Sequence record: NC_024794.1
Strand: one strand, 5' to 3'
Source: Escherichia phage vB_EcoM_PhAPEC2
Length of the DNA stretch: 64,000 bases
The notes under the pieces are model-generated. The model saw nothing but the letters and a program-made list of their open reading frames with translations. It made no database searches and had not been told where the DNA came from. A program made the translations under genes and the position numbers. Numbering within the stretch: position 1 is the first letter of the stretch; every line of letters starts with the position of its first letter. Shown here piece after piece: positions 1 to 54,038 of this stretch.

Positions 1-2214
1 TTATTTGGCCGCTTCCACGGCCTTCATGAATTTAACGATTTGAGCGACCTGTTCTTTGGAAAGAGTACCACGTCGTCCCATGTATTCTGACACAATATGA
101 TAATTGGTTTCGAATTCAATAACCATTTTATCATCATTATCGTAAGCATTATCTTTAAGCTTATCGAAAATTTTAGCACACAATTCTAACTTCCTGTTCA
201 GGTCTCTGTTATCAGCGCCTGCGAATCGATTCCATCCCCAACGATTATTTACTGTTGAAAGTTTTGCGAAATCTTTACTGATTTCTTTGTTCTTAGAGCT
301 AAAATACTTACTAAGAAAGTTAAGCTCTTCATTACGAGTAATATGATTCAAATAAGGCTGTGCTCTACGACTTGGTGATACATACTCATCATAATCTACT
401 TTATCGATTAGCATAATATAGTCATTAATTGATTTTTCAAACAAGCATTCTACTTCACCAAGTTTACGAACTTTCTTAGCAATCTGTGGGCGAACTACAG
501 TGAACTCTTTAATACCTGACAAATCAGCAATACGGGTCAAAAAATTGGAGTCATAGTTCAACCAACCTTTATCTGCGTCAAGACATTCAGCGTTAGAACG
601 ATTACGAATTACAACATAACCTTGAATCTCATCAGCTTTACTGGCCGGAATAAAGAGATCTTCTGATACCCAAACATCGTTTTCATTCTTAAAAAACCGA
701 TGAGCACTTGGGGATTTAGGACGAGGCTGCGATGAACGTTCTTTAACTTCAATCCATGGTTTAACTAATGCAAGAATTTCAGAGGTCTTATAAAATTTAA
801 GGCTATCACCAGCGAAAATAACCTTTAATCGTTCCAGAAGTTTCATTGCAACTTCATCTTCTGGGTTAATGAATAATACGCTACTACCCCATCCGGAAGG
901 AACCTTATCAACGAGTGTTGATGCATCGGTGGAAGTCAAAGCATCGTTCAGAGCACGCATCATTGGTACGCGGCCTTTCACATCGTCAATAACAATATCA
1001 ATATGCTTACGACTAATACCTAGCAGGCTATTAATTGAAATAGTTGCAGACGAGCTTCCGCTTTCACGAATACGACGAAGTCGTGGGTCTGAAACGATAT
1101 CATATACAACACCAAGGTTGCACCATTCGGGACCCATTTTAAAACGTTTGTACAACTCGGAATAAGTTAGTTGTTCTTTAGAATATTTCAGTGATTCAAT
1201 ATTAGAACCGGCTTTTTCCATGTATTTACGAGCAGAGTAACCAAGAGAATCGATTTCACGGAATACATGACGTGGATATTCACAATCAATCCATTTCTTA
1301 GAATCTTCAGCAAATAATTTTGCATCGATTTCTGCAACACGTTTATGGATATTTGCTACTGTGCGTTTATCAAATGACAATGCTTCACGAGACGGGGCTA
1401 CATCTAGTTCACCCATAGGGAATTTAATATAAGCTGTAGTGCATCGCGTCATCATCCATGTTTGTTCTTTAATAACACTTCCGATTGGATATACAATACC
1501 ACCATAAACAGCCATGATATTACCACGTTCACCCCATGGAGCTTCCTTGGCTAAATAAACATCATCGAATTCCGGGAAGTATTTGATATCTTTAACACCA
1601 CGAACTTCTGCGATATCACCTAGAGGACGCATAACATATGCAATTTCAGATGCGAACTTTTCAAAATCTTCTGGGTTAACCGGTACAACTACTTCTACAC
1701 CCGTACGGTCATCAGGACCCATCTTATCTACAAAGGTTGGCTTAATTTGTGGACCCGTGTCATCTTGGTAGATTACGTAACCACGAACTTCACCGTTGTG
1801 ATAAGACGTAAGGTTAAACGTATCGGTATATGCTAGTGGAGCTTTAGAGCCGAGTCCGAATCCACCAATGAAATCGTTACTCGATGTTTTAGTTGAAGCA
1901 AAATATGAGTTATAGATTCCTGGCTCTTCGTCATTACCTCGAATGGTGAAATCACTCATACCAGGACCAAAGTCTCGAACTACAAAACGTGGGTCTAAAC
2001 GACCTGGAGCCTGAACAATAAACTTATCAGTGCAACCATTAAGAATTTGACCATCGATACAGTTTGTGATTAATTCACGTACACAAGCCAATTCTTTGTT
2101 TGTATAAAGGTCATTAGACAAAATCTTATAAACTTTGCTATTGCCTTGAATAGTGAATGCTGTGCTCTTACCACCTGAACCAATAATCGTTTCTTTAGCC
2201 GTTTCAATAATCAT
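1..2214 (-). CDS. rIIA: rIIA protein (membrane-associated, N-terminal GHKL/HATPase-like fold)
   Basis: 737-aa ORF; N-terminus MIIETAKETIIGSGGKS...ELITNCIDG matches my memory of T4 rIIA; first gene of the conventional T4 map. Confidence 0.9.
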   Translation of the reverse strand: MIIETAKETIIGSGGKSTAFTIQGNSKVYKILSNDLYTNKELACVRELITNCIDGQILNGCTDKFIVQAPGRLDPRFVVRDFGPGMSDFTIRGNDEEPGIYNSYFASTKTSSNDFIGGFGLGSKAPLAYTDTFNLTSYHNGEVRGYVIYQDDTGPQIKPTFVDKMGPDDRTGVEVVVPVNPEDFEKFASEIAYVMRPLGDIAEVRGVKDIKYFPEFDDVYLAKEAPWGERGNIMAVYGGIVYPIGSVIKEQTWMMTRCTTAYIKFPMGELDVAPSREALSFDKRTVANIHKRVAEIDAKLFAEDSKKWIDCEYPRHVFREIDSLGYSARKYMEKAGSNIESLKYSKEQLTYSELYKRFKMGPEWCNLGVVYDIVSDPRLRRIRESGSSSATISINSLLGISRKHIDIVIDDVKGRVPMMRALNDALTSTDASTLVDKVPSGWGSSVLFINPEDEVAMKLLERLKVIFAGDSLKFYKTSEILALVKPWIEVKERSSQPRPKSPSAHRFFKNENDVWVSEDLFIPASKADEIQGYVVIRNRSNAECLDADKGWLNYDSNFLTRIADLSGIKEFTVVRPQIAKKVRKLGEVECLFEKSINDYIMLIDKVDYDEYVSPSRRAQPYLNHITRNEELNFLSKYFSSKNKEISKDFAKLSTVNNRWGWNRFAGADNRDLNRKLELCAKIFDKLKDNAYDNDDKMVIEFETNYHIVSEYMGRRGTLSKEQVAQIVKFMKAVEAAK

Positions 2215-6791: not shown

Positions 6792-6807
6792 AATATTCTC
6801 CTCTTGT

Positions 6808-6850
6808 TTTTGATAGGTCTATAGTATCATAGACCATAGTTGTTGTACAT
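6808..6850 (-). promoter_or_regulatory. early (sigma70-type) promoter
   Basis: minus strand TGTACA, 17 nt, TACTAT, then SD AAGAGGAGAA. Confidence 0.45.
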
Positions 6851-7374
6851 CATTTTAGCAAAATAAAATCAACTTGTTCTGCCAATGAACGTCTGAACAT
6901 TAATTGACAGCTTCCGAGGATGAAATCAGGTGCTTCATAGACCGCGATGTAGTATCCTTTAGCTTTCAAGAGTTCAACATCCACCTGGTCATCAAACCAT
7001 GCATAAACCGCGTCAACACTTTCAAATCCAAAATAGAACCCTTGAGCCCAATCTTCACTCAATTCAAATGTGTGCTCAATTCTATGGTATCTTAAGATAT
7101 TTTGTTCAAGGAGTTTGTCTTCATTTACTGTAGGACGATTAGGGACATTATAGTTGTCGCCGTGATGGTAGAAGTTACCTGAGATTATTCCATGTTTATC
7201 AAGGAACTCCCATGTTTCTTCAGAGTTGTCGGTGCCTGACCAACCGTATGGCGAACGAGGTTCTTTATTCCAAGAGGTTTCCCAAATTCTGACGGCTTTA
7301 CCGTCTTCGATAGCAATTCCTGGTAATGATTCACGTTGAGTACAAAAACTACGTTCTACGCGGTAAACTAACAT
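6850..7374 (-). CDS. hypothetical protein
   Basis: track ORF 6850..7431 reads through a promoter; SD GGAGAA precedes internal ATG (MLVYRVERSF). Confidence 0.6.
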   Translation of the reverse strand: MLVYRVERSFCTQRESLPGIAIEDGKAVRIWETSWNKEPRSPYGWSGTDNSEETWEFLDKHGIISGNFYHHGDNYNVPNRPTVNEDKLLEQNILRYHRIEHTFELSEDWAQGFYFGFESVDAVYAWFDDQVDVELLKAKGYYIAVYEAPDFILGSCQLMFRRSLAEQVDFILLK

Positions 7375-7433: not shown

Positions 7434-7853
7434 TTATGCGAAAGCAGCTGGGCTATATTTTTTAATTTGGAATTCAGGAACTACCATGAACTGTCCAGCG
7501 AAAACGATGTTATAAAGCTTAACACCATCTTCTACCCAACGGTCGCTAATAAATCCAGCGATTTGCTTAGTTTTCCACGGTGTTCCATCAGTTGCCGCAG
7601 CAATAGTGAATTCATGGTCTTTTTCAACAGAAACTGATCTGCATAGTCCCCATTTGAACGCTTTTTCTTCCGGTTCAATGAACTGGCTTGAGACGTAGCC
7701 AATATTACCATTAGCATCACGAACTTTAACTTGGTTACGACCAAAAACCGGATCACTCACAGAAAGAACTTCAACCAACTTCCCGGCAACTTTAGAGCGA
7801 GAAGCAACAGATACATATACGTAATCACCTGTAGAGAGATTTACAATATTCAT
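7434..7853 (-). CDS. hypothetical protein, tandem paralog family member A
   Basis: 139 aa; shares C-terminal block GFISDRWVEDGVKLYNIVFAGQF with the two following ORFs. Confidence 0.6.
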   Translation of the reverse strand: MNIVNLSTGDYVYVSVASRSKVAGKLVEVLSVSDPVFGRNQVKVRDANGNIGYVSSQFIEPEEKAFKWGLCRSVSVEKDHEFTIAAATDGTPWKTKQIAGFISDRWVEDGVKLYNIVFAGQFMVVPEFQIKKYSPAAFA

Positions 7854-7862
7854 AATAATTCC

Positions 7863-8318
7863 TTAAGCTTTACGAGGAGACACATAGCGAGTGATTTCAG
7901 ATTCTTTAACAACTCGGAAGTCACCTAAGAATACGATATTATATAACTTTTCACCATCTTCAACCCATTGGTCACTAATGAAGCCACACATAGTATCAGT
8001 TTTGCTTGGATAACCGTATTCATCGATGAAGTCAAATTCTTTATCAGTCTGGAATTCAACACCTTTACACAAGGCCCATTTGAACTGTACATTAGGCTCA
8101 GTAGAAGCAAAAGCACCACTCACACGAGTTTCCAGGAATTTAGGACTTACGTAAGCGTACTGAGTATCCTGACGTCCAAAACTAGGAATGATTCGAACTT
8201 TAACTTCTTTAATACGTCCCGTGCCATTTGTGCGAAGTCCGACAACTTCAACCAGACGACCTGCGGCTTTAGAACGGGATGCAGTTGATACACGCTTAAT
8301 TTCACCAATAGTAATCAT
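7863..8318 (-). CDS. hypothetical protein, tandem paralog family member B
   Basis: track ORF 7863..8381; real start likely MITIGEIKRV; conserved VSTASRSKAAGRLVEV and GFISDQWVEDGEKLYNIVFLGDF blocks. Confidence 0.6.
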   Translation of the reverse strand: MITIGEIKRVSTASRSKAAGRLVEVVGLRTNGTGRIKEVKVRIIPSFGRQDTQYAYVSPKFLETRVSGAFASTEPNVQFKWALCKGVEFQTDKEFDFIDEYGYPSKTDTMCGFISDQWVEDGEKLYNIVFLGDFRVVKESEITRYVSPRKA

Positions 8319-8345
8319 AATTTCTCTCTCTTTGTTTAAATTGAA

Positions 8346-8380
8346 TTCACTATACTCCATCCATCCTTGGATGTACAACA
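8346..8380 (-). promoter_or_regulatory. early promoter (cassette variant)
   Basis: minus strand TTGTAC, ATCCAAGGATGGATGGAG, TATAGT. Confidence 0.45.
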
Positions 8381-8875
8381 TTAATTAAGGATATTAACCA
8401 CAGCACTACGCGGAACTACACTAAAATCACCTGCATGAACTACGTTCAGAAGTTCAACACCGTCTTCAATCCACTGATCAGTTACCCATCCACTCACTGG
8501 ACCTGCAAACGGACGATGAATTGAAACAGCTTTACACAACAAATCAGTAGGCTCAATAGGCTTAATCAGAGTACCGTACATACAAGCGATATCCATATCA
8601 ATACAGATGTCTTTAACGGGTTCTACTTCTTCAATCAACAGTTCAAAGTCGGTGCTTGGAAGGGCGGTAGTAGAAATTGTACCATATGAATTTTTAATTT
8701 CTAAGAATAACCAAGGACCTTCAGCTTGTTTGATGAAGTTAACAATAGTGAAACTATTACCTTGAGTGGCACCTAAAATTTCACAAAACTTTTCATAAGC
8801 TCGCACTGAAGCACCGTACCAGTTGATTTGTTTTTCGTCTTTCAGGATGTAAGTAGCCGTAGTATTGATATTCAT
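8381..8875 (-). CDS. hypothetical protein, tandem paralog family member C (divergent N-terminus)
   Basis: track ORF 8381..8917; start moved to MNINTTATY because the upstream Met lies inside the promoter; C-terminal GWVTDQWIEDGVELLNVVHAGDF. Confidence 0.55.
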   Translation of the reverse strand: MNINTTATYILKDEKQINWYGASVRAYEKFCEILGATQGNSFTIVNFIKQAEGPWLFLEIKNSYGTISTTALPSTDFELLIEEVEPVKDICIDMDIACMYGTLIKPIEPTDLLCKAVSIHRPFAGPVSGWVTDQWIEDGVELLNVVHAGDFSVVPRSAVVNILN

Positions 8876-8899
8876 AATGGTTTCCCGTTTGGTTAAGAT

Positions 8900-8936
8900 A
8901 GAAAGATTATACTCCAACCATCCTTGGTTGTAAACC
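8900..8936 (-). promoter_or_regulatory. early promoter (duplicated cassette copy 1)
   Basis: minus strand GTTTAC, AACCAAGGATGGTTGGAG, TATAAT. Confidence 0.55.
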
Positions 8937-8940
8937 GGTT

Positions 8941-9618
8941 TTATCGCTGTTTTACACTTAACGGGTCAGGATTCTCAGGGACATCTTCAAGGCCAAGCGC
9001 ATAACGCTGAGCATATTTTAACATCAAAATATCTTTAGCACAATCATGAATACTATCATGAGCAACGAATCCTTTTAGCGTACCCATCGGTAATGGACAC
9101 ATACTTAATCCTCGTGTCAACGAGTAAGCTTCGATTGCCGTACGAATATCGCGTTGAGCCCAGAATTTAACCGGTTCTAATTTATCAGTATCAATATCTG
9201 GTTCAAGAACACCTTCATCACGATAGAGGTCACGAATCAAATCAACCAATATCGGGAAGTCAAAGCTCATACCACGGCACCACATCTGTGATTTCCATTG
9301 GTCAACTTTATTATCTCGGCAATAGTCTAAAAAGATTTTAATGCCTTCAAGCGTAGTGACATCATCTTCAGACGGAGCCAGGTTTTTACGCGCTTCAGCC
9401 GATTGTTCTTTCCACCATTTCATAGTGGATTTAGCGAAAACTCTCTTCCCTTTCTGAGAAGCTAAATTAAATTTAATTCGCTTACCTCGTTGAACAAGTT
9501 CTTCAAATGATTCAACAACTTCAGGGTCGGAATTATATGCAATAACCGCAAGGTCAATAACAGCCGCTTTTGATGTATTGCCGAATGTTTCAAAATCTAT
9601 AATAACGTCAGTGCTCAT
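8941..9618 (-). CDS. dexA: exonuclease A (DEDDh 3'-5' exonuclease)
   Basis: 225 aa; IIDFETFG exo motif; position upstream of dda as in T4. Confidence 0.8.
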   Translation of the reverse strand: MSTDVIIDFETFGNTSKAAVIDLAVIAYNSDPEVVESFEELVQRGKRIKFNLASQKGKRVFAKSTMKWWKEQSAEARKNLAPSEDDVTTLEGIKIFLDYCRDNKVDQWKSQMWCRGMSFDFPILVDLIRDLYRDEGVLEPDIDTDKLEPVKFWAQRDIRTAIEAYSLTRGLSMCPLPMGTLKGFVAHDSIHDCAKDILMLKYAQRYALGLEDVPENPDPLSVKQR

Positions 9619-9627
9619 AATTTTCTC

Positions 9628-10941
9628 TCAAATAAAATGGACGTCAAAACGACCACGAGTCGTGCCGACATACAATAACTGTTTAGCTAATTCTGAATCT
9701 GCATAATGGATACACGGTGTATAAACAAAGGCCGTGTCAACAGACATACCCTGGGCCTTATGGAAGGTTGATACTGGTAGTGCCTTCACCTTAGTGAACA
9801 TGCGTTTAGCATCCCAGAATTCGCTCCATGGAGCTTTACCACCTTTATTCCAAAATTTGTATGTTTCTGCGGCCTTAGCCAAAAACAAATTGAATTTATA
9901 AAGCTCTTCTTCAGAAGAAATAACCTTTATATCTTCTCGGATATATTCTTCATCATCCCCATATGTTTCTACTGTAAGATTCCAGTATCGTATCATATAT
10001 TCGCCTGAAACACCACGTGCTTTAACGAATGTAGACGTTTCTACAGCATCTCGAATACGAACGAATTGCCCGTTATTGAAAAGCATTTCGGTCATATTTT
10101 TACCATCTAGCTTATATGTCTTAGTAAATGGCTCTTGTAGAACAATGACTTCGTCTTTAATAAATGGTTTTTCTGTTTCAAGAAGTTTTCGGCGAATAAT
10201 TGAATTTAACTTGTCCACCGACTTATTTGTGAATGCCATCATTCGATTTTCGAAAAGGTCTTCAGGAGTTTTAACGACGTTAAAATAGTTCATCATATAC
10301 GATTTAAGGTCTGTATATCCATGAACACCGTGCCCATCAACTACTTTATCGTAAATCCATTTGCCATTACGAATATCAGTCGCAACATCAATAATTGGTG
10401 CATTGCTACGTTTAACTTCTGTAAGGTTGCATTGCACGAAGTCTTTGTGAGTGAAGAAAGGACTTAGATACGCAGTTGATTCGCCTGGGTCTACCGGACG
10501 AATCTGGCATCGGTCGCCGATTCCAATTACTGTACACCATTTAGGGATACTAGCTAACATTATTTTAAACAGAGAACGGTCGCACATTGATGCTTCATCA
10601 AATAACAGTACACGACACAAGGCTAAGTCGGGAACCTTTTTCTGTTCAAACAATACGTTTTCTTCGTATGTAGTTGGGTTGATTTTAAGAATGCTATGAA
10701 TAGTCGATGCTTCTTGACCCGCAAGTTTGCTTAGAACCTTTTTAGCAGCATGTGTAGGGGCTGCTAAAATAATACCTGATTCTCCAGAAGAAATAAGGGC
10801 TTCAACGATGAATCTAGTAAGGGTTGTTTTACCTGTACCAGCGGGCCCATTAATAGTTACGTGATGTTTCTTTTCTTTAATAGCTTTCATAACAACGTTG
10901 AAGGCGTTTTTCTGACCTTCAGTCAAATCATCAAATGTCAT
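9628..10941 (-). CDS. dda: Dda DNA helicase (SF1)
   Basis: 437 aa; Walker A GPAGTGKTT; T4 Dda is 439 aa. Confidence 0.9.
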   Translation of the reverse strand: MTFDDLTEGQKNAFNVVMKAIKEKKHHVTINGPAGTGKTTLTRFIVEALISSGESGIILAAPTHAAKKVLSKLAGQEASTIHSILKINPTTYEENVLFEQKKVPDLALCRVLLFDEASMCDRSLFKIMLASIPKWCTVIGIGDRCQIRPVDPGESTAYLSPFFTHKDFVQCNLTEVKRSNAPIIDVATDIRNGKWIYDKVVDGHGVHGYTDLKSYMMNYFNVVKTPEDLFENRMMAFTNKSVDKLNSIIRRKLLETEKPFIKDEVIVLQEPFTKTYKLDGKNMTEMLFNNGQFVRIRDAVETSTFVKARGVSGEYMIRYWNLTVETYGDDEEYIREDIKVISSEEELYKFNLFLAKAAETYKFWNKGGKAPWSEFWDAKRMFTKVKALPVSTFHKAQGMSVDTAFVYTPCIHYADSELAKQLLYVGTTRGRFDVHFI

Positions 10942-47918: not shown

Positions 47919-48178
47919 TTAAAATATTCTCGCAGTTGGTCAAATCCACCAATGTGACTTCCGTCAGGAGCAAACACTTGAGGCATAGTCAATCCGACTT
48001 GTGATTCACGTCCAAGCTTAACCAGAAGCTCAGCAATTTTCTCATCATCAAACACACCTTTTTCTGGCATAACATTAATGAATTCAAATGGCTGTTTCTT
48101 AACAGTCAGCAATCGTTTTGCATTATCACAATAAATGCATTTATGAATAGTAGAGTCATACCCGTACACTTTAAACAT
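47915..48178 (-). CDS. nrdC: phage thioredoxin/glutaredoxin
   Basis: 87 aa; CIYCDNAKRLL active site; near-identical to remembered T4 NrdC. Confidence 0.85.
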   Translation of the reverse strand: MFKVYGYDSTIHKCIYCDNAKRLLTVKKQPFEFINVMPEKGVFDDEKIAELLVKLGRESQVGLTMPQVFAPDGSHIGGFDQLREYFK

Positions 48179-48585
48179 TATTTTTTCCTTTCATCGATTA
48201 AATACGCAACACCAAATACAATACATGTAATAAAACCTGTGATACCGATAGAGAACATCAACACTGTACCAAAGAACCAAATCAGATTATCTTTAGTAGT
48301 TTGTTTGATATCCATCTCACGAATTTCTATAGCTATCGTATCACCTTTATTCAGAAGCGTATAAAACGACGGTGATACATGCCTGTCAAAAACTCGACCT
48401 TGTTCATCTTTATAAACTGCAATAAATTCCAATTTAGAATATTTTCCTGTAGATTGGCCTGAGATTAATTCTACTACCTCCACAGGAATTACTTTAGTTT
48501 CCATGTAAGTATTCTGGCTGTTCCAAATGAATGGAATAATGGCAAAAACTAAAGCTGCGATAAAACAACGAAGGCTATATCTCAT
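48178..48585 (-). CDS. membrane protein
   Basis: 135 aa; N- and C-terminal hydrophobic helices. Confidence 0.55.
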   Translation of the reverse strand: MRYSLRCFIAALVFAIIPFIWNSQNTYMETKVIPVEVVELISGQSTGKYSKLEFIAVYKDEQGRVFDRHVSPSFYTLLNKGDTIAIEIREMDIKQTTKDNLIWFFGTVLMFSIGITGFITCIVFGVAYLIDERKK

Positions 48586-48890
48586 TATAATGTTCTCTCA
48601 AATTTGTGGAAGCATTTACGGCATTTCAATTTCAAGTTATCAGTGGTCCAGTTAACCAGTTGGACTTGGATAGTTCCACATTCCGGGCATGGATGTTTTG
48701 CTGCCGATTTGGCAGCATTTTCACGTCGTTCAACCATTTTCATTATTTCGTTCCATGCCGGAGGAACGAACTCTTCTTCACCGTGGATTTTATCTCGCTG
48801 AACAAATTCAATCTTTGAACTATCGTCAATAAACTTAACCAAGCCATGACTAGTGCTCATATCAATATCCTCTAAAAGACGTAGTTTCAT
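48585..48890 (-). CDS. zinc-ribbon protein
   Basis: 101 aa; CPECG...CRKC. Confidence 0.55.
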   Translation of the reverse strand: MKLRLLEDIDMSTSHGLVKFIDDSSKIEFVQRDKIHGEEEFVPPAWNEIMKMVERRENAAKSAAKHPCPECGTIQVQLVNWTTDNLKLKCRKCFHKFERTL

Positions 48891-49840
48891 TATAACACCT
48901 CAATGGCATTTCGTAAACCGTCCGCTTTCGCATTCAGAGCTTTTAACGATTTAGTTTGTTCTTTAATCTGGGCTTCGACTTCTTTCAGACGAGATTTGAG
49001 GTACTCACGTTCTTCGCTCAAGTTGTCAACTTTTTCTACTTTAGGTTCTTTAATAGTCTTAAGTTTATACTCGTTAGGGTTCTTCAGCTTAATTCGGGTA
49101 CGAGAACTGAATAACATTGAACCGTTATCTTCGGATTCGTCGAACGTTTCAACAACATCCATAGTCTCTAACAATGTAATAAGTTTATAAGACAACGAAC
49201 GAATAGTTTTGTTGTGCTTATTAATTTCTTCGGCTTTCATAGTACCGAGATTACGTGAGTAGTAATAAGGAACCTGGATATCAATTGACAATGATGCGTT
49301 ACCATTACCAGTTGGTTTGAATACTGCAGTAACCCAATCTTTAACATGAACTTTATTTGTACGGCCATCACCGCCAGTGAATAATTTACGAGAATGTTTA
49401 AAAAGCATATTCACTTGTTTATTGAATTCACAAGCAAATTTATCAGCAAATTTAGTTTCAGGAATGGTAGATAACCAATCAGCCAAATGAGTCTTTTTAA
49501 CATCATTAACAATAGTGAATTCAACCAAATCGGTTTTAGATGTCACAGATTTAATAAAGCTCGGTTTCATAAAGTTTTTAATGTTATCGCGAGCTACAGT
49601 AGAAGATAATAAACGAGAACGTTTGAACCATTGAAGCAGCGTCCCTAGTGAATGAGAATATGCATTTTGAGTATCTTTACAGATATGATTTTCTTGGCCT
49701 GTGTATGTACCAAAATCGCGAAGAATACCACTTACTACATCTCGGTGTGGAACATCAAATCCTAGTGCACCAACAGCGCGCTGGGCACGAACGTTAGCGA
49801 TAAGACCGGCAAAGTATTCAATGTAATGTGAACGTGTCAT
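48890..49840 (-). CDS. hypothetical protein with C-terminal coiled coil
   Basis: 316 aa; own copy of the duplicated promoter cassette upstream. Confidence 0.6.
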   Translation of the reverse strand: MTRSHYIEYFAGLIANVRAQRAVGALGFDVPHRDVVSGILRDFGTYTGQENHICKDTQNAYSHSLGTLLQWFKRSRLLSSTVARDNIKNFMKPSFIKSVTSKTDLVEFTIVNDVKKTHLADWLSTIPETKFADKFACEFNKQVNMLFKHSRKLFTGGDGRTNKVHVKDWVTAVFKPTGNGNASLSIDIQVPYYYSRNLGTMKAEEINKHNKTIRSLSYKLITLLETMDVVETFDESEDNGSMLFSSRTRIKLKNPNEYKLKTIKEPKVEKVDNLSEEREYLKSRLKEVEAQIKEQTKSLKALNAKADGLRNAIEVL

Positions 49841-49864
49841 AATATTTTCCTCTCGTTAAGATAG

Positions 49865-49899
49865 ATTCATTATACTCCAACCATCCTTGGTTGTAAACC
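49865..49899 (-). promoter_or_regulatory. early promoter (duplicated cassette copy 2)
   Basis: minus strand GTTTAC, AACCAAGGATGGTTGGAG, TATAAT; identical to 8900..8936 copy. Confidence 0.55.
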
Positions 49900-49902
49900 G
49901 TT

Positions 49903-50862
49903 TTATGATTTTAATGCATTCATTGCGTTAAAAAGTTTAGAATACTGCAACTGGAGATTCGTTACAACACTTTGAGCATCACGAAGCTTAGCTTGTGCTT
50001 TGTCAAGTTCAACGGACAGTTGGTCTACAGTAGCCTTGATTTGGTTGTAATGATAATCTTCGGCCGGAAGAAGGTCATTAGAAACATTTAGTTTTACTGC
50101 CGACAGTTTGCACACATTTGGCAAACATTTAAACATATCGGGTTGTGCCGGAGAATATGCGCTTAGAACCTCTGCATTACCGACTGGTGTTGCTGTGATA
50201 TTGCCTTCGAACGTTGCATTTTCCTTTTTAAGATTTTGATAGTATTCAGAGTCTTTGTGCCACCATGGCGCAGGAACCTTTTTACCAATAGATACACGAG
50301 CCTGGATAGCGATATGGCCCTTATTCTTGATAATGTCGATAATATTAAGCTCACGAGAATAAATCGCTTTAATCTGGTGGATATTATCACCTAAAACTTC
50401 CAACGCTTGGTGGAATACACGAGCAACGTTATCATTCTTAGGTTTATACGTGAGAGTGAACTCGTTCTCACTGATAACCATGATTTCCAACTTATCGTAA
50501 GTATATTTCAAATGTTTCATGTTAATTGCTTGAGGACGAATACGAGAAGCAATGGCCATCAAATTGTTAAGGTTATTTCTGAACTGTTTAGCAAAATATT
50601 GTCCATAACCGCCAATACAAAAATTACGAAGTTTCTGTTTGGCTAATAAACGGCTGAACTCACCATTTTTAATGAACTCTTTAACGGGTGTGTTAGTAAC
50701 GCATTCAAATTGAGTAAACTTACGAGAAGTAATCCCGTAATATGAACAGATTTCCTCAATCTCTTCAGGAGTCTTTACAGGCATACGGATAGGATTAGGT
50801 CCTGTGGTATATGCGTTCGAGGTAAATTCTTTGATAAGTTCTCTACGTGTAATAGAAGCCAT
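49903..50862 (-). CDS. hypothetical protein with C-terminal coiled coil
   Basis: 319 aa; own copy of the duplicated promoter cassette. Confidence 0.6.
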   Translation of the reverse strand: MASITRRELIKEFTSNAYTTGPNPIRMPVKTPEEIEEICSYYGITSRKFTQFECVTNTPVKEFIKNGEFSRLLAKQKLRNFCIGGYGQYFAKQFRNNLNNLMAIASRIRPQAINMKHLKYTYDKLEIMVISENEFTLTYKPKNDNVARVFHQALEVLGDNIHQIKAIYSRELNIIDIIKNKGHIAIQARVSIGKKVPAPWWHKDSEYYQNLKKENATFEGNITATPVGNAEVLSAYSPAQPDMFKCLPNVCKLSAVKLNVSNDLLPAEDYHYNQIKATVDQLSVELDKAQAKLRDAQSVVTNLQLQYSKLFNAMNALKS

Positions 50863-50884
50863 TTTATATTCCTCATGTTGAAAA

Positions 50885-50919
50885 ATTTATTATACTCCAA
50901 CCATCCTTGGTTGTACATC
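50885..50919 (-). promoter_or_regulatory. early promoter (duplicated cassette copy 3)
   Basis: minus strand TGTACA, ACCAAGGATGGTTGGAG, TATAAT. Confidence 0.55.
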
Positions 50920-51916
50920 ATTCCTTAAGAAGTTTTACTACTTGAATAAGATTAGCTCGTTCTGTTTTATTTTTACCGTTTAAGCCTGCTAATCGTGAGA
51001 TCTCATCGTCAGTCTGTTGAATAGTTACATTAAGTTCGTTAATCAAAGCTTCAAAGTATTTGATTTGCTCAGCATGTTTTGATTCAAATTTCTGAACCGG
51101 AATAACGTCTTGGTTTAGTTCATCAATAAGGTCTTTAAGAGCATCTTCTTGGTTGATATCATATTCAACTTCTTTTATTTCTTCAACGAGCTCGTCTTTA
51201 TATCTAACGTCTTTTAGTCCTGGAGCTGGTCCTGAAATCTCTTCTTTAAGAGTACAAACATACCCAATACGGTATCCAATACCCAGGAACGGCTTGATAT
51301 CAACTTCGTCGATAAATCCACAATGTTTAAGACCAGAGCCGATTAGGTCAAAATATCCTTGACGTCGTCCTTCAAACGTTACACGAACTACTAAGACGGT
51401 TTTACCTGCAACCTTTTGAAGCTCACATTTATAAAAGTCAGTTGAACCTGAATAACGTGGATGAGTTTTAAAGTTCATCTGACGATCTAGGCCCATTTGT
51501 AAACGTGCTGTTACGGCCATAAAACGTGTTTGGTTCTCGTTAAGATGAGCAACAATCCATTTCAAAGGCATTTTACCCTGTTCACGTCCGAACAAATCAG
51601 TACGTCCTAGATTACGCAGGATGTTGTTAGAGTTAATCATCGACAGAACGTTAAGTTTATTCAGCGCGCTGAAGATTCCATCAGCCATTGATTTTCCATA
51701 ACCTTTACACGCTTTAATAAGTGCTCGCGGCAGATTAGTATAGATTTCAGACGGCATATGAAAATCAAATTTTCTAACCAATAATTGATGAACTTGGATA
51801 GCAATTTGCTCATAATTAAGTGCTCTGCGATCGTTATGGTCTTTAAACCACACTTTAATCTGTGAAGCACATAAACCGTTAATTTCATGTTTTATCGCAT
51901 CAGATGTAATGCTCAT
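50918..51916 (-). CDS. hypothetical protein with C-terminal coiled coil
   Basis: 332 aa; degenerate copy of the promoter cassette upstream. Confidence 0.6.
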   Translation of the reverse strand: MSITSDAIKHEINGLCASQIKVWFKDHNDRRALNYEQIAIQVHQLLVRKFDFHMPSEIYTNLPRALIKACKGYGKSMADGIFSALNKLNVLSMINSNNILRNLGRTDLFGREQGKMPLKWIVAHLNENQTRFMAVTARLQMGLDRQMNFKTHPRYSGSTDFYKCELQKVAGKTVLVVRVTFEGRRQGYFDLIGSGLKHCGFIDEVDIKPFLGIGYRIGYVCTLKEEISGPAPGLKDVRYKDELVEEIKEVEYDINQEDALKDLIDELNQDVIPVQKFESKHAEQIKYFEALINELNVTIQQTDDEISRLAGLNGKNKTERANLIQVVKLLKE

Positions 51917-51978
51917 AACTATTTCCTCAGATTGAATTGGAACTCAAAACCATTATAACCCGTCCTTGGGTAAAGCGT

Positions 51979-52506
51979 TTATGCGTGAACCGTCTTTAAA
52001 CGTTCTTCAAATTTCCGAAGAGTACTAATACGTTCTGCTTTCTGTTTTGTATAGTTTGCAATACGTTCTGAAGTGAGAGCGTATCGTTCGTTTACTGTTT
52101 CTTTCATGAAGTCAGGGATTTCACGAGAAGCTTTAATTTCATCAAACTTATCGAGTACTGCCTGGTCTTCAGCGATTAAATTTTCGTACATCTCGATATC
52201 TTTCTTGATAAACTCGATATCTTCCTGGGTTACTTTGGATAAACGAGATGCTTTATCCTTTTTGTACTGCTCGTTAGTTTCACGAGACCAGAATAATGTA
52301 CGTTTTTTGTTGGTGTTTTTGTAGACTTCCACAATTCCAACTGAATCGATGATAACAATCCAATTCCAGCGAGATTTGAAAATCTGACCTCCGTCCACGG
52401 TAATCTCGTTACCATAAGCAACGTCATTAAAGAACTTGCTTTGTGCTTCAGATTTAAATTTACCGTCGTTATAATTTACCAGGTTGAAAATATCTTTAGC
52501 GTTCAT
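51979..52506 (-). CDS. hypothetical protein
   Basis: 175 aa; SD GGAGGT. Confidence 0.55.
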   Translation of the reverse strand: MNAKDIFNLVNYNDGKFKSEAQSKFFNDVAYGNEITVDGGQIFKSRWNWIVIIDSVGIVEVYKNTNKKRTLFWSRETNEQYKKDKASRLSKVTQEDIEFIKKDIEMYENLIAEDQAVLDKFDEIKASREIPDFMKETVNERYALTSERIANYTKQKAERISTLRKFEERLKTVHA

Positions 52507-52514
52507 GTTTTACC

Positions 52515-52558
52515 TCCAGTAGTTGATAGGTCTATAATAACATAACCATAGACCTTGT
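52515..52558 (-). promoter_or_regulatory. early promoter
   Basis: minus strand GTTTAC, 17 nt, TATTAT followed by AGACCTATCAA. Confidence 0.5.
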
Positions 52559-52564
52559 AAACAA

Positions 52565-53995: not shown

Positions 53996-54038
53996 GTTTC
54001 GATAGGTCTATAATAACATGTTTAAAGCAAAAGTAAAC
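53996..54038 (-). promoter_or_regulatory. early promoter with embedded MotA-box-like sequence
   Basis: minus strand GTTTAC TTTTGCTTTA AACATGT TATTAT. Confidence 0.5.

What the first reader, a model, noticed from the sequence alone, without database searches (positions are those of the whole stretch)
48890..51916. Three consecutive coiled-coil proteins of about 320 aa, each with its own promoter
All three have a globular N-terminal part and a C-terminal heptad-rich tail of about 60 residues (for example ...KEVEAQIKEQTKSLKALNAKADGLRNAIEVL). Each is preceded by a copy of the promoter cassette and an intergenic gap, unlike the tightly coupled neighbours. They have no evident primary-sequence similarity to each other, so this looks like a modular accessory locus.
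Basis: seen in the sequence. Interest (0 to 1): 0.5.

Follow-up and report, generated by a model that had tools for sequence, protein, structure and literature searches.

The report
Tandem diverged paralogs, likely phage counter-defence
The three genes are the nrdC.3, nrdC.5-like and nrdC.6 genes of a T4-like coliphage; they are very diverged copies of one phage-only protein family, one T4 member of which is known to switch off a bacterial immune protein (Dsr1), so the locus is probably a small anti-immunity gene array rather than three unrelated genes.

Summary
The three ORFs are real. They lie on the minus strand at 48890-49840 (A, 316 aa), 49903-50862 (B, 319 aa) and 50918-51916 (C, 332 aa). 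The window is a Mosigvirus (RB69-like T-even phage).

- **Identity:** A is the ortholog of T4 nrdC.3. B belongs to Pfam DUF7235, the family of T4 NrdC.5. C is a homolog of nrdC.6.
- **Relatedness:** BLAST finds no similarity among the three. Profile comparisons through T4 nrdC.4 and newly found intermediate families link all of them, E 1e-6 to 1e-17. The links hold with the C-terminal helix removed.
- **Architecture:** basic helical N-terminal part, then two β-hairpins flanking a helix, a disordered linker and a C-terminal helix.
- **Distribution:** an exhaustive search of 1.84 billion proteins found only 27 clusters. Those that could be traced come from T4-like phages.
- **Promoters:** A and B carry identical early-promoter cassettes with a covarying hairpin between -35 and -10, the known PeSL type. 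C has the homolog of the mapped MotA-dependent T4 middle promoter PnrdC.7.
- **Function:** T4 NrdC.5 overcomes the SIR2 defence Dsr1 (Srikant 2022). Counter-defence is therefore the best inference for B, and a weaker one for A and C.
- **Limits:** structure models were low-confidence and no fold was assigned.

This is a new member of known kinds, of moderate interest.

The parts
48890..49840 (-). Gene A, 316 aa: ortholog of T4 nrdC.3 (PHROG 1435). Basic protein (pI 9.5) with a C-terminal heptad coiled coil at about residues 258-316.
   Evidence: ORF. 56% identity over the full length to T4 NrdC.3 (E 9e-119) and 75% to ime09 nrdC.3. PHROG hit. Same position, directly upstream of nrdC.2. Heptad test. 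dN/dS 0.09-0.25.
49869..49897 (-). Early-type promoter cassette (PeSL-like) for A: -35 TTTACA (49897-49892), hairpin CAACCA-AGGA-TGGTTG (49893-49878), GGAG, -10 TATAAT (49874-49869).
   Evidence: Hairpin covariation across phages.
49903..50862 (-). Gene B, 319 aa: DUF7235 (PF23882) member. It is the Mosigvirus-type homolog of T4 NrdC.5, the anti-Dsr1 protein. Linker 226-266 is hypervariable; C-terminal helix at 267-318.
   Evidence: Pfam E 3.9e-119, 398 bits, over the full length. T4 NrdC.5 hits the same model at 5.3e-126. 25% identity over 313 aa, E 4e-11. Found in 134 phage records, 131 of them at 80% identity or more and those listed being Mosigvirus. Model. Regional variability.
50889..50917 (-). 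Early-type promoter cassette for B: -35 TGTACA (50917-50912), the same hairpin (50913-50898), -10 TATAAT (50894-50889). 26 nt are identical to the cassette of A.
50918..51916 (-). Gene C, 332 aa: Mosigvirus-type homolog of nrdC.6 (PHROG 2257; relatives carry PF26899). Helical N-terminal domain 1-100; C-terminal helix-break-helix 282-331.
   Evidence: 32-33% identity over the full length to the T6 and ime09 nrdC.6 proteins, E 4e-34. PHROG hit. PF26899 on relatives. Model.
51952..51980 (-). MotA-box-type (middle) promoter-like element for C: aaaCGCTTTA (51980-51971), 13-nt spacer holding CCAAGGACGG, -10 TATAAT (51957-51952). It overlaps the nrdC.8 stop codon.
   Evidence: Sequence. 9 of 10 match to the MotA box consensus at the published 12±1 spacing. 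It is the sequence and positional homolog of T4 CGCTTTATACCAAGGATGGTATAAT, whose position fits the mapped PnrdC.7 start site 53325.

Best explanation
The locus is a tandem array of three very diverged paralogs (nrdC.3, nrdC.5-type and nrdC.6-type) of one protein superfamily found in T4-like phages. They are expressed before replication, A and B from their own strong early promoters and C from a MotA-type middle promoter.

Each protein has four parts: a basic globular N-terminal part (a helical bundle, then β-hairpin / helix / β-hairpin), a disordered linker, and a C-terminal amphipathic helix that probably makes it oligomerise.

**Shown:** orthology, the superfamily relationship, promoter anatomy, purifying selection with faster evolution than the neighbours, and restriction to T4-like phages.

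**Inferred:** the T4 member NrdC.5 lets T4 overcome the SIR2-domain defence protein Dsr1. The array is therefore most likely a set of counter-defence proteins made immediately after infection. Each would bind and neutralise a host immune protein as an oligomer. B would act against Dsr1 or a Dsr1-like system, and A and C against other targets or variants.

The repeated promoter cassettes (PeSL type) give each gene autonomous expression. They may also offer recombination sites by which copies are gained, lost and swapped.
For: - **Identity:** A = nrdC.3 (56% identity, E 9e-119). B = DUF7235, as is T4 NrdC.5. C = nrdC.6 family.
- **One superfamily, by hhalign:** c3-c4 E 7.9e-12; c4-c5 2.4e-7; c5-x7 2.4e-13; c6-x7 4.5e-17; x7-x8 3.2e-14; c5-x8 3.3e-10.
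- **Links survive removal of the last 65 residues:** 2.4e-12, 6.7e-8, 1.8e-6, 3.3e-11 and 1.9e-7 for the first five pairs.
- **Bridge sequence:** the Klebsiella phage F48 protein P0233 matches A by BLAST (E 7e-8) and the B family by profile.
- **Shared motifs:** blocks are visible in the joint alignment.
- **Shared secondary structure:** the order of elements is the same in both AlphaFold2 models.
- **Fold search:** the B model hits a c6-family protein at E 2.7e-5. Both models hit the same uncharacterised T4-like-phage proteins.
- **Distribution:** only 27 clusters in 1.84 billion proteins. Members sit at the same locus in Karamvirus and Gelderlandvirus.
- **Function anchor:** plasmid-borne T4 nrdC.5 restores plating of a deletion mutant on Dsr1-bearing cells (PMC9391042).
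- **Selection:** dN/dS is 0.09-0.25, against 0-0.04 for nrdC.10. dN is up to 0.09, against 0.003 or less.
- **Plasticity:** natural fusions, deletions and an internal duplication occur in the array.
- **Promoters:**
Against: - No experiment exists on any Mosigvirus copy, nor on nrdC.3, nrdC.4 or nrdC.6 in any phage.
- B is only 25% identical to the tested T4 protein, so its target may differ.
- How NrdC.5 acts on Dsr1 (direct binding or otherwise) is unpublished in the library searched.
- Direct c5-c6 and c3-c6 profile comparisons are not significant. C is linked only through the x7 intermediates.
- No gene-wide positive selection is seen. Within Mosigviruses most of B's variation sits in the disordered linker. 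That could be relaxed constraint rather than an arms race.
- No hit to PADLOC, NCBIfam or PDB sequences.
Confidence: 0.5

Rival explanations
1. Host-takeover or regulatory proteins unrelated to immunity. In this reading they are basic, oligomeric early proteins that bind nucleic acid or a host housekeeping complex (nucleoid, RNA polymerase, translation or NAD metabolism). The Dsr1 effect of T4 NrdC.5 would then be indirect.
For: - All members are basic: pI 8.1-9.5, and the N-terminal parts 8.5-9.5.
- They are expressed from early or middle promoters, like other T4 host-shutoff genes.
- No direct NrdC.5-Dsr1 interaction has been published.
- They sit among nucleotide-metabolism genes: nrdC, nrdD and the nrdC.11 nucleotidyltransferase.
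Against: - The genes are dispensable: T4 clones lose them spontaneously and still grow on laboratory strains.
- Copy number varies from 0-1 to 4 between related phages.
- They evolve much faster than neighbouring genes. This fits strain-specific accessory functions better than a conserved host target.
- No DNA- or RNA-binding domain was detected.
Confidence: 0.2
2. Largely functionless, selfishly maintained ORFan cassettes. In this reading PeSL-flanked genes persist because recombination between the cassettes shuffles and spreads them, with no benefit to the phage.
For: - Identical repeated promoter cassettes flank the genes.
- PeSLs have been shown to mediate excision and shuffling of ORFans in RB49 and phi1.
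- Deletions and chimeras occur in nature.
- T4's own nrdC.6 appears frameshifted.
Against: - All three genes are under purifying selection, dN/dS 0.09-0.25.
- Full-length orthologs are kept across Tequatrovirus, Mosigvirus, Dhakavirus and Gaprivervirus, with relatives in Karamvirus, Gelderlandvirus and Marfavirus.
- One member has a demonstrated phenotype.
Confidence: 0.1
3. Three unrelated proteins that merely share a generic coiled-coil tail. This is the first reader's 'modular' reading, with the similarity caused by coiled-coil composition.
For: - BLASTP among A, B and C is not significant.
- Direct c5-c6 hhalign gives E 0.13.
- Some cross-family hits lie only in the tail.
Against: - Profile links persist after the last 65-70 residues are removed.
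- With tail-less HMMs, the top 12 non-self hits of the c5 model are c3 or c4 proteins, with one other ORF ahead of the thirteenth.
- Conserved N-terminal and central motif blocks align colinearly in all families.
- Intermediate families carry motifs of both c5 and c6.
Confidence: 0.05

Closest known systems
T4 NrdC.5 (Pfam DUF7235, PF23882), the anti-Dsr1 counter-defence protein (Srikant et al., eLife 2022, PMC9391042)
   Same: B matches the same Pfam model end to end (398 bits against 421 for T4 NrdC.5). It has the same length class, the same C-terminal helix ending ...KL.NA.NAL, the same array and the same pre-replicative expression.
   Different: B is only 25% identical to it. B is a separate subtype found almost only in Mosigvirus records. 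B has its own early promoter, whereas T4 nrdC.5 follows nrdC.6 after an 8-nt gap with no promoter. Activity against Dsr1 is untested for B.
T4 NrdC.3, NrdC.4 and NrdC.6 (hypothetical proteins; PHROGs 1435 and 2257; PF26899 on nrdC.6 relatives; PF26897 on a c5/c3 chimera, so probably the c3 family)
   Same: A is the nrdC.3 ortholog and C is an nrdC.6-family member, at syntenic positions.
   Different: - The window lacks nrdC.4 and carries an nrdC.7-like membrane gene in the nrdC.1 position.
- C is 37-57 residues longer than the Tequatrovirus and Dhakavirus forms, with an acidic insert before the tail.
- The databases checked here (Pfam, PHROGs) keep these as separate families. Their common origin with DUF7235 is shown here.
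PeSL cassettes (promoter-early stem-loops) of T4-type phages (Arbiol et al. 2010, PMC2839356; Comeau et al. 2014, PMC4122927)
   Same: Each cassette is a repeated intergenic element made of a strong sigma-70-like early promoter (TTTACW-N17-TAYWAT, as published for the PST/T4 pair) plus a stem-loop. Here the stem-loop lies between -35 and -10, one of the five published subclasses. The cassettes sit upstream of accessory ORFs in a hyperplastic region.
   Different: - The stem is short and weak: 5-8 bp, about -7 kcal/mol, not significant against shuffles. It has no U-tract, so terminator activity is doubtful.
- The loop AGGA and the CCA/TGG base are conserved across four genera. The stem-loop forms quoted from those papers are different.
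- The deletions seen here used coding-sequence microhomology, not the cassettes.
T4 middle promoter PnrdC.7 (MotA/AsiA-dependent; Hinton 2010 review table, PMC2988021)
   Same: The element upstream of C (CGCTTTACCCAAGGACGGGTTATAAT) is the sequence homolog of T4 CGCTTTATACCAAGGATGGTATAAT. The position of that T4 element fits the mapped start site 53325. Both follow nrdC.8 directly.
   Different: In T4 it drives nrdC.7-nrdC.6-nrdC.5. Here it drives C directly, because the nrdC.7-like gene sits elsewhere. Activity is not measured.
DSAD1, the phage inhibitor of DSR2 (from my own knowledge, not tested here)
   Same: It is a possible functional analogy: a phage protein that blocks a SIR2 NADase defence by binding it.
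   Different: No sequence or structural relation was found or tested. The analogy concerns only the proposed mode of action.

Membership tests
Pfam DUF7235 (PF23882; T4 NrdC.5 family) | Full-length match to the family HMM above the gathering score (30 bits) | tested here: met
   B scores 398.1 bits, E 3.9e-119, residues 15-318 on profile positions 1-307. T4 NrdC.5 scores 420.6 bits. A and C have no hit, so they are not members of this Pfam family as currently defined.
Anti-Dsr1 counter-defence proteins (function of T4 NrdC.5) | Restores phage plating on cells that express Dsr1 | not testable with these tools
   Shown only for T4 NrdC.5 (PMC9391042). B shares 25% identity with it.
T4 nrdC.3 orthologs | Best full-length match and conserved position directly upstream of nrdC.2 | tested here: met
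   A against T4 NrdC.3: 56% identity over 316 aa, E 9e-119. The next best T4 protein is NrdC.4, at 3.8e-5. Synteny. 652 phage records hold a match.
nrdC.6 family (PF26899 / PHROG 2257) | Full-length homology to nrdC.6 proteins and position after nrdC.8 | tested here: met
   C against T6 nrdC.6: 32% identity over the full length, E 4e-34. PHROG 2257 at E 4e-125. The PF26899 model is absent from the local Pfam copy, but relatives carry it in precomputed annotation.
nrdC.3/.4/.5/.6 superfamily (proposed here) | Significant colinear profile-profile similarity outside the coiled coil | tested here: met
   hhalign with the last 65 residues removed: c3-c4 2.4e-12; c4-c5 6.7e-8; c5-x7 1.8e-6; c6-x7 3.3e-11; x7-x8 1.9e-7. 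The direct c5-c6 and c3-c6 comparisons are not significant.
nrdC.3/.4/.5/.6 superfamily (proposed here) | Common three-dimensional fold | tested here: inconclusive
   Both models are low-confidence (pLDDT 52.7 and 56.9) but show the same order of secondary-structure elements. Foldseek cross-hits reach E 2.7e-5, but TM-scores are only 0.2-0.47. A was not modelled.
Coiled-coil proteins | Heptad repeat of hydrophobic a/d positions over at least four heptads in a predicted helix | tested here: met
   - A: 5 heptads, 0 of 300 shuffles reach the score.
- B: best window 285-319, P 0.08, inside a 52-residue predicted helix.
- C: 4 heptads at 285-309, read by eye with F and T counted at d positions, then a break. 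My LIVM-only score was not significant.
- Oligomeric state was not tested.
PeSL regulatory cassettes | Repeated intergenic sigma-70-like early promoter combined with a stem-loop, upstream of accessory ORFs | tested here: met
   Promoter matches of 11/12 and 10/12. The exact 22-mer repeat occurs 3 times, with 0 expected. In the hairpin 90.7% of cells pair, 4 of 6 pairs have compensatory changes, and 0 of 500 shuffles reach the covariation score.
PeSL regulatory cassettes | Promoter and terminator/attenuator activity; mediation of recombination | not testable with these tools
   The hairpin is weak (about -7 kcal/mol, z about -1.1 to -1.3 at the A and B cassettes) and lacks a U-tract. No terminator-like site was called in the gaps.
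MotA-dependent T4 middle promoters | MotA box (a/t)(a/t)(a/t)TGCTTtA placed 12±1 bp upstream of TAtaaT | tested here: met
   Upstream of C: aaaCGCTTTA (9 of 10), 13-bp spacer, TATAAT. It is homologous to the mapped T4 PnrdC.7. Activity is not testable here.

The most novel reading that the evidence does not exclude
The nrdC.3/.4/.5/.6 superfamily is a dedicated, diversifying repertoire of oligomeric immune inhibitors in T4-like phages. One scaffold (globular domain, variable linker, coiled coil) would have been duplicated and retargeted, so that each paralog neutralises a different host defence protein or allele: Dsr1 for NrdC.5, other NADase or unrelated systems for the rest. Phages would tune host range by gaining, losing and recombining copies through their promoter cassettes.
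Probability: 0.3. Interest if true: 0.7.

Novelty: new member of a known kind. Interest (0 to 1): 0.42.

Why it matters
T-even phages carry many unexplained early genes. Here four of the larger ones (nrdC.3-.6), and their Mosigvirus versions, collapse into one family that already has a member with a counter-defence phenotype.

That yields a direct, cheap experiment: test each paralog against Dsr1 variants and defence-system panels. It also suggests that counter-defence genes can form paralog arrays too diverged for ordinary sequence searches to recognise.

There is a practical point as well. Many GenBank records label all of these genes 'thioredoxin', which is a name-propagation error.

Tried and rejected
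- **Direct comparisons:** BLASTP among A, B and C found nothing. The first hhalign with small alignments linked only c3-c4 and c4-c5, and C stayed unlinked. A deep c5 against c6 profile comparison was still not significant, E 0.13. The link appeared only after the exhaustive search turned up intermediates.
- **Word-indexed searches:** they returned only close relatives. With a mixed four-family alignment they missed c3, c4 and the T4-type c5 altogether. A was therefore never modelled.
- **AlphaFold2:** B was run with 82 sequences and C with 70. Mean pLDDT was 52.7 and 56.9, so only secondary structure and the N-terminal domain of C are usable.
- **Databases with no match:** PDB sequence search, PADLOC and NCBIfam. 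The weak PADLOC 'MTase_I' hit to A (E 0.0018) lies in the helical tail and was dismissed.
- **Promoter hairpin as a stable RNA structure or terminator:** folding energies are not better than shuffles. Only the covariation supports the hairpin.
- **Gene-wide positive selection:** not found, dN/dS below 0.26.
- **Acinetobacter phage Konradin 343-aa ORF at the same locus:** only tail-level similarity, so membership was left open.
- **Literature:** searches for any function of nrdC.3.4 or .6 found none.


Full report
**What is there.** The window is a Mosigvirus, an RB69-like T-even coliphage. The region is 97-98.5% identical to phages AV111, Shf125875 and ATK47. They lie in the nrdC accessory region. 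Upstream, in the direction of transcription, are nrdC.11, nrdC.10, nrdC.9 and nrdC.8. Downstream are nrdC.2, an nrdC.7-like membrane gene and nrdC, with overlapping stop and start codons.

**Identity of the three proteins.**
- A is the ortholog of T4 NrdC.3. It is 56% identical over the full length (E 9e-119) and 75% identical to the ime09 allele. It matches PHROG 1435 and holds the same position upstream of nrdC.2.
- B matches Pfam DUF7235 end to end (398 bits), as does T4 NrdC.5 (421 bits). The two are only 25% identical (E 4e-11). Of 134 phage records with a B match, 131 are at 80% identity or more, and those listed are Mosigviruses.
- C is an nrdC.6-family protein. It is 32-33% identical to the T6 and ime09 proteins over the full length (E 4e-34) and matches PHROG 2257.
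- T4 has a fourth gene of the same size class, nrdC.4, which this phage lacks.

**Are they related to each other?**
- BLASTP says no.
- A joint alignment of all four families shows colinear shared blocks. These are an N-terminal M-TR-EYI, a block F-K-SRLLS...A...L-NF, a helix F..FR.N...LLA.A.R followed by G-D-R...K, a P..P.E.H segment, and a tail ending L..A...LK.
- Small-alignment hhalign gave c3-c4 E 8e-12 and c4-c5 about 1e-5. C (c6) stayed unlinked, and stayed so with deep alignments.
- I then searched a superfamily profile exhaustively against 1.84 billion representative proteins. It found only 27 clusters.
- Among them were new intermediates. One is the group I call x7 (P0225, P0227, P0229, P0230, P0234, P0235), all metagenomic, one of them on a 178-kb contig. 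The other is x8 (P0233), from Klebsiella phage F48 and its relatives.
- With these added the network closes: c6-x7 4.5e-17, c5-x7 2.4e-13, x7-x8 3.2e-14, c5-x8 3.3e-10, c4-c5 2.4e-7, c4-x7 1.2e-6, c3-c4 7.9e-12.
- Every link that closes the network survives removal of the last 65 residues, so the coiled coil does not create them; the extra c5-x8 link weakens to E 6.8e-4.
- P0233 also matches A directly by BLAST (24% over 346 aa, E 7e-8).
- Tail-less family HMMs run against 182 local ORFs rank the other families first.
- Single copies at the same locus in Karamvirus and Gelderlandvirus also join the family, through x7 at E 4e-7 and 3e-6. Control proteins do not.

I conclude that A, B and C are diverged paralogs.

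**Architecture.** The AlphaFold2 models of B and C are low-confidence (mean pLDDT 52.7 and 56.9). They agree on the order of elements: five or six N-terminal helices, one long helix, β-hairpin / helix / β-hairpin, a disordered linker, and C-terminal helices.
- The heptad pattern is strong in A, moderate in B and interrupted in C.
- The proteins are basic, pI 8.1-9.5.
- Foldseek against viral models gave cross-family hits. B hit a c6-family protein at 2.7e-5, and both models hit the same uncharacterised proteins of other T4-like phages. TM-scores were low.

**Promoters.** A and B are each preceded by an identical 26-nt element. It has the form (T/G)TACA-ACCAAGGATGGTTGGAG-TATAAT, a T4-type early promoter. 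Between -35 and -10 lies the hairpin CAACCA-AGGA-TGGTTG, followed by GGAG.
- The same design occurs upstream of nrdC.3 and nrdC.4 genes in Tequatrovirus, Dhakavirus and Gaprivervirus, and twice more in this window. The stems differ but compensate.
- Across nine variants 90.7% of cells pair and 4 of 6 pairs show changes on both sides. None of 500 shuffles reaches the covariation score, and slid controls pair at 18-41%.
- The hairpin is thermodynamically weak.
- This fits the published PeSL cassettes, one subclass of which has the stem-loop between the two promoter boxes.
- C is different. Its upstream element, aaaCGCTTTA-13 nt-TATAAT, is a MotA-box promoter. It is homologous to the T4 element whose position fits the mapped middle promoter PnrdC.7.

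**Evolution.** Against three other Mosigviruses, A, B and C have dN/dS of 0.09-0.25. They are real genes under purifying selection. Their dN reaches 0.09, against 0.003 or less for nrdC.10, and their dS is raised, which suggests exchange of alleles.
- Within Mosigviruses, B varies mostly in the disordered linker 226-266, which averages 46% identity to the window sequence. The rest is 82-98% identical, and 92% or more outside residues 201-225.
- The array is plastic. ACG-C40 has a deletion that leaves an nrdC.5/nrdC.3 remnant.
- One metagenomic protein fuses a c5 front to a c3 back.
- Another puts an unrelated N-terminus on the c5 tail.
- Phage Sf25 has an internal duplication in nrdC.6.

**Function.** The only experimental anchor is T4 NrdC.5. 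A T4 clone that had lost it could not plate on cells carrying the SIR2-domain defence gene dsr1, and plasmid-borne nrdC.5 restored plating (PMC9391042). I found nothing on nrdC.3.4 or .6. Several observations point to counter-defence for the array as the best-supported reading:
- homology to NrdC.5;
- immediate-early or middle expression;
- dispensability;
- copy-number variation between phages;
- fast evolution.

I rate this as likely for B and plausible for A and C. The mechanism, an oligomeric binder that blocks a host immune protein, is inference. Rival readings are a host-takeover role unrelated to immunity, or selfish ORFan cassettes. Both are less consistent with the dispensability, selection and phenotype data.

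**Verdict.** The 'unrelated modules' interpretation is not. The genes are new members of known families in a known kind of hyperplastic, PeSL-studded region. The unification of nrdC.3-.6 into one family with an anti-Dsr1 member is a modest but testable addition.

Noticed in passing
window 7434-8917 (minus strand), promoter copies at 8349-8370 and 8906-8927: This is a second tandem set of three small paralogous ORFs: 139 aa, plus ORFs listed as 172 and 178 aa whose likely ATG starts just after the promoter copies would give about 152 and 165 aa. They share a C-terminal motif GF(I/V)(S/T)D(R/Q)W(V/I)EDG..L.N(I/V)V..G.F.VV. Two of them are preceded by the same hairpin-bearing early-promoter cassette as A and B. 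They lie just downstream of a dexA-like gene (8941-9618).
   Followed up: partly
L002 (T4 NC_000866) 10067-10894 and the 70 nt upstream of nrdC.5: The nrdC.6 of the T4 reference is 275 aa with an aberrant tail. The normal coiled-coil tail (…SGLSSKAKSEREKLIKIVDLLKS) is still encoded out of frame just before nrdC.5, and tblastn needs two pieces to cover it. The T4 reference therefore appears to carry a frameshifted nrdC.6.
   Followed up: partly
GenBank records under hits H1, H24, H54, H60-H64 and others: Many records label every nrdC.x gene 'thioredoxin', including nrdC.3 to nrdC.11. This appears to have spread from the gene-name prefix. None of A, B or C has a thioredoxin or glutaredoxin domain.
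   Followed up: yes
L005 (ACG-C40) 6805-7213; proteins P0216, P0217, P0072: Natural rearrangements occur in the array. ACG-C40 keeps only a 71-aa nrdC.5 remnant next to an nrdC.3 tail. P0216 fuses c5 residues 146-274 to the c3 C-terminal half at a VN microhomology. P0217 joins an unrelated 120-aa N-terminus to the c5 coiled coil. P0072 (phage Sf25) has an internal 120-aa duplication in nrdC.6.
   Followed up: partly
window 48889-48917 (minus strand): A good sigma-70-like site (TTTACG-17-TATAAT with TG) lies inside the last codons of A. Its -10 box overlaps the A stop and the nrdC.2 start (TATAATG). It may be chance, or an internal promoter giving a near-leaderless nrdC.2 transcript.
   Followed up: no
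window 51979-52506 (nrdC.8), 52534-52561 and 54010-54037: nrdC.8 (175 aa, 83% identical to T4) also ends in a helical, heptad-like tail, and BFVD hits of both models included a 175-aa KPV15 protein. nrdC.8 and nrdC.10 each have their own promoter-like site, TTTAC(A/T)-16-TATTAT with TG. A 2026 DRT1 paper lists T4 nrdC.8 among transcripts lowered in DRT1-expressing cells and calls it a nucleotide reductase, which its sequence does not support.
   Followed up: partly
L013 (phage moha) 4199-4399: Phage moha has an extra 66-aa ORF inserted between its C and B genes, which is absent from the window.
   Followed up: no
window 48178-48585: The 135-aa membrane protein occupying the nrdC.1 position is a homolog of T4 NrdC.7 (41% identity, E 1.6e-24). 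Gene order in this region therefore differs between Mosigvirus and T4.
   Followed up: partly
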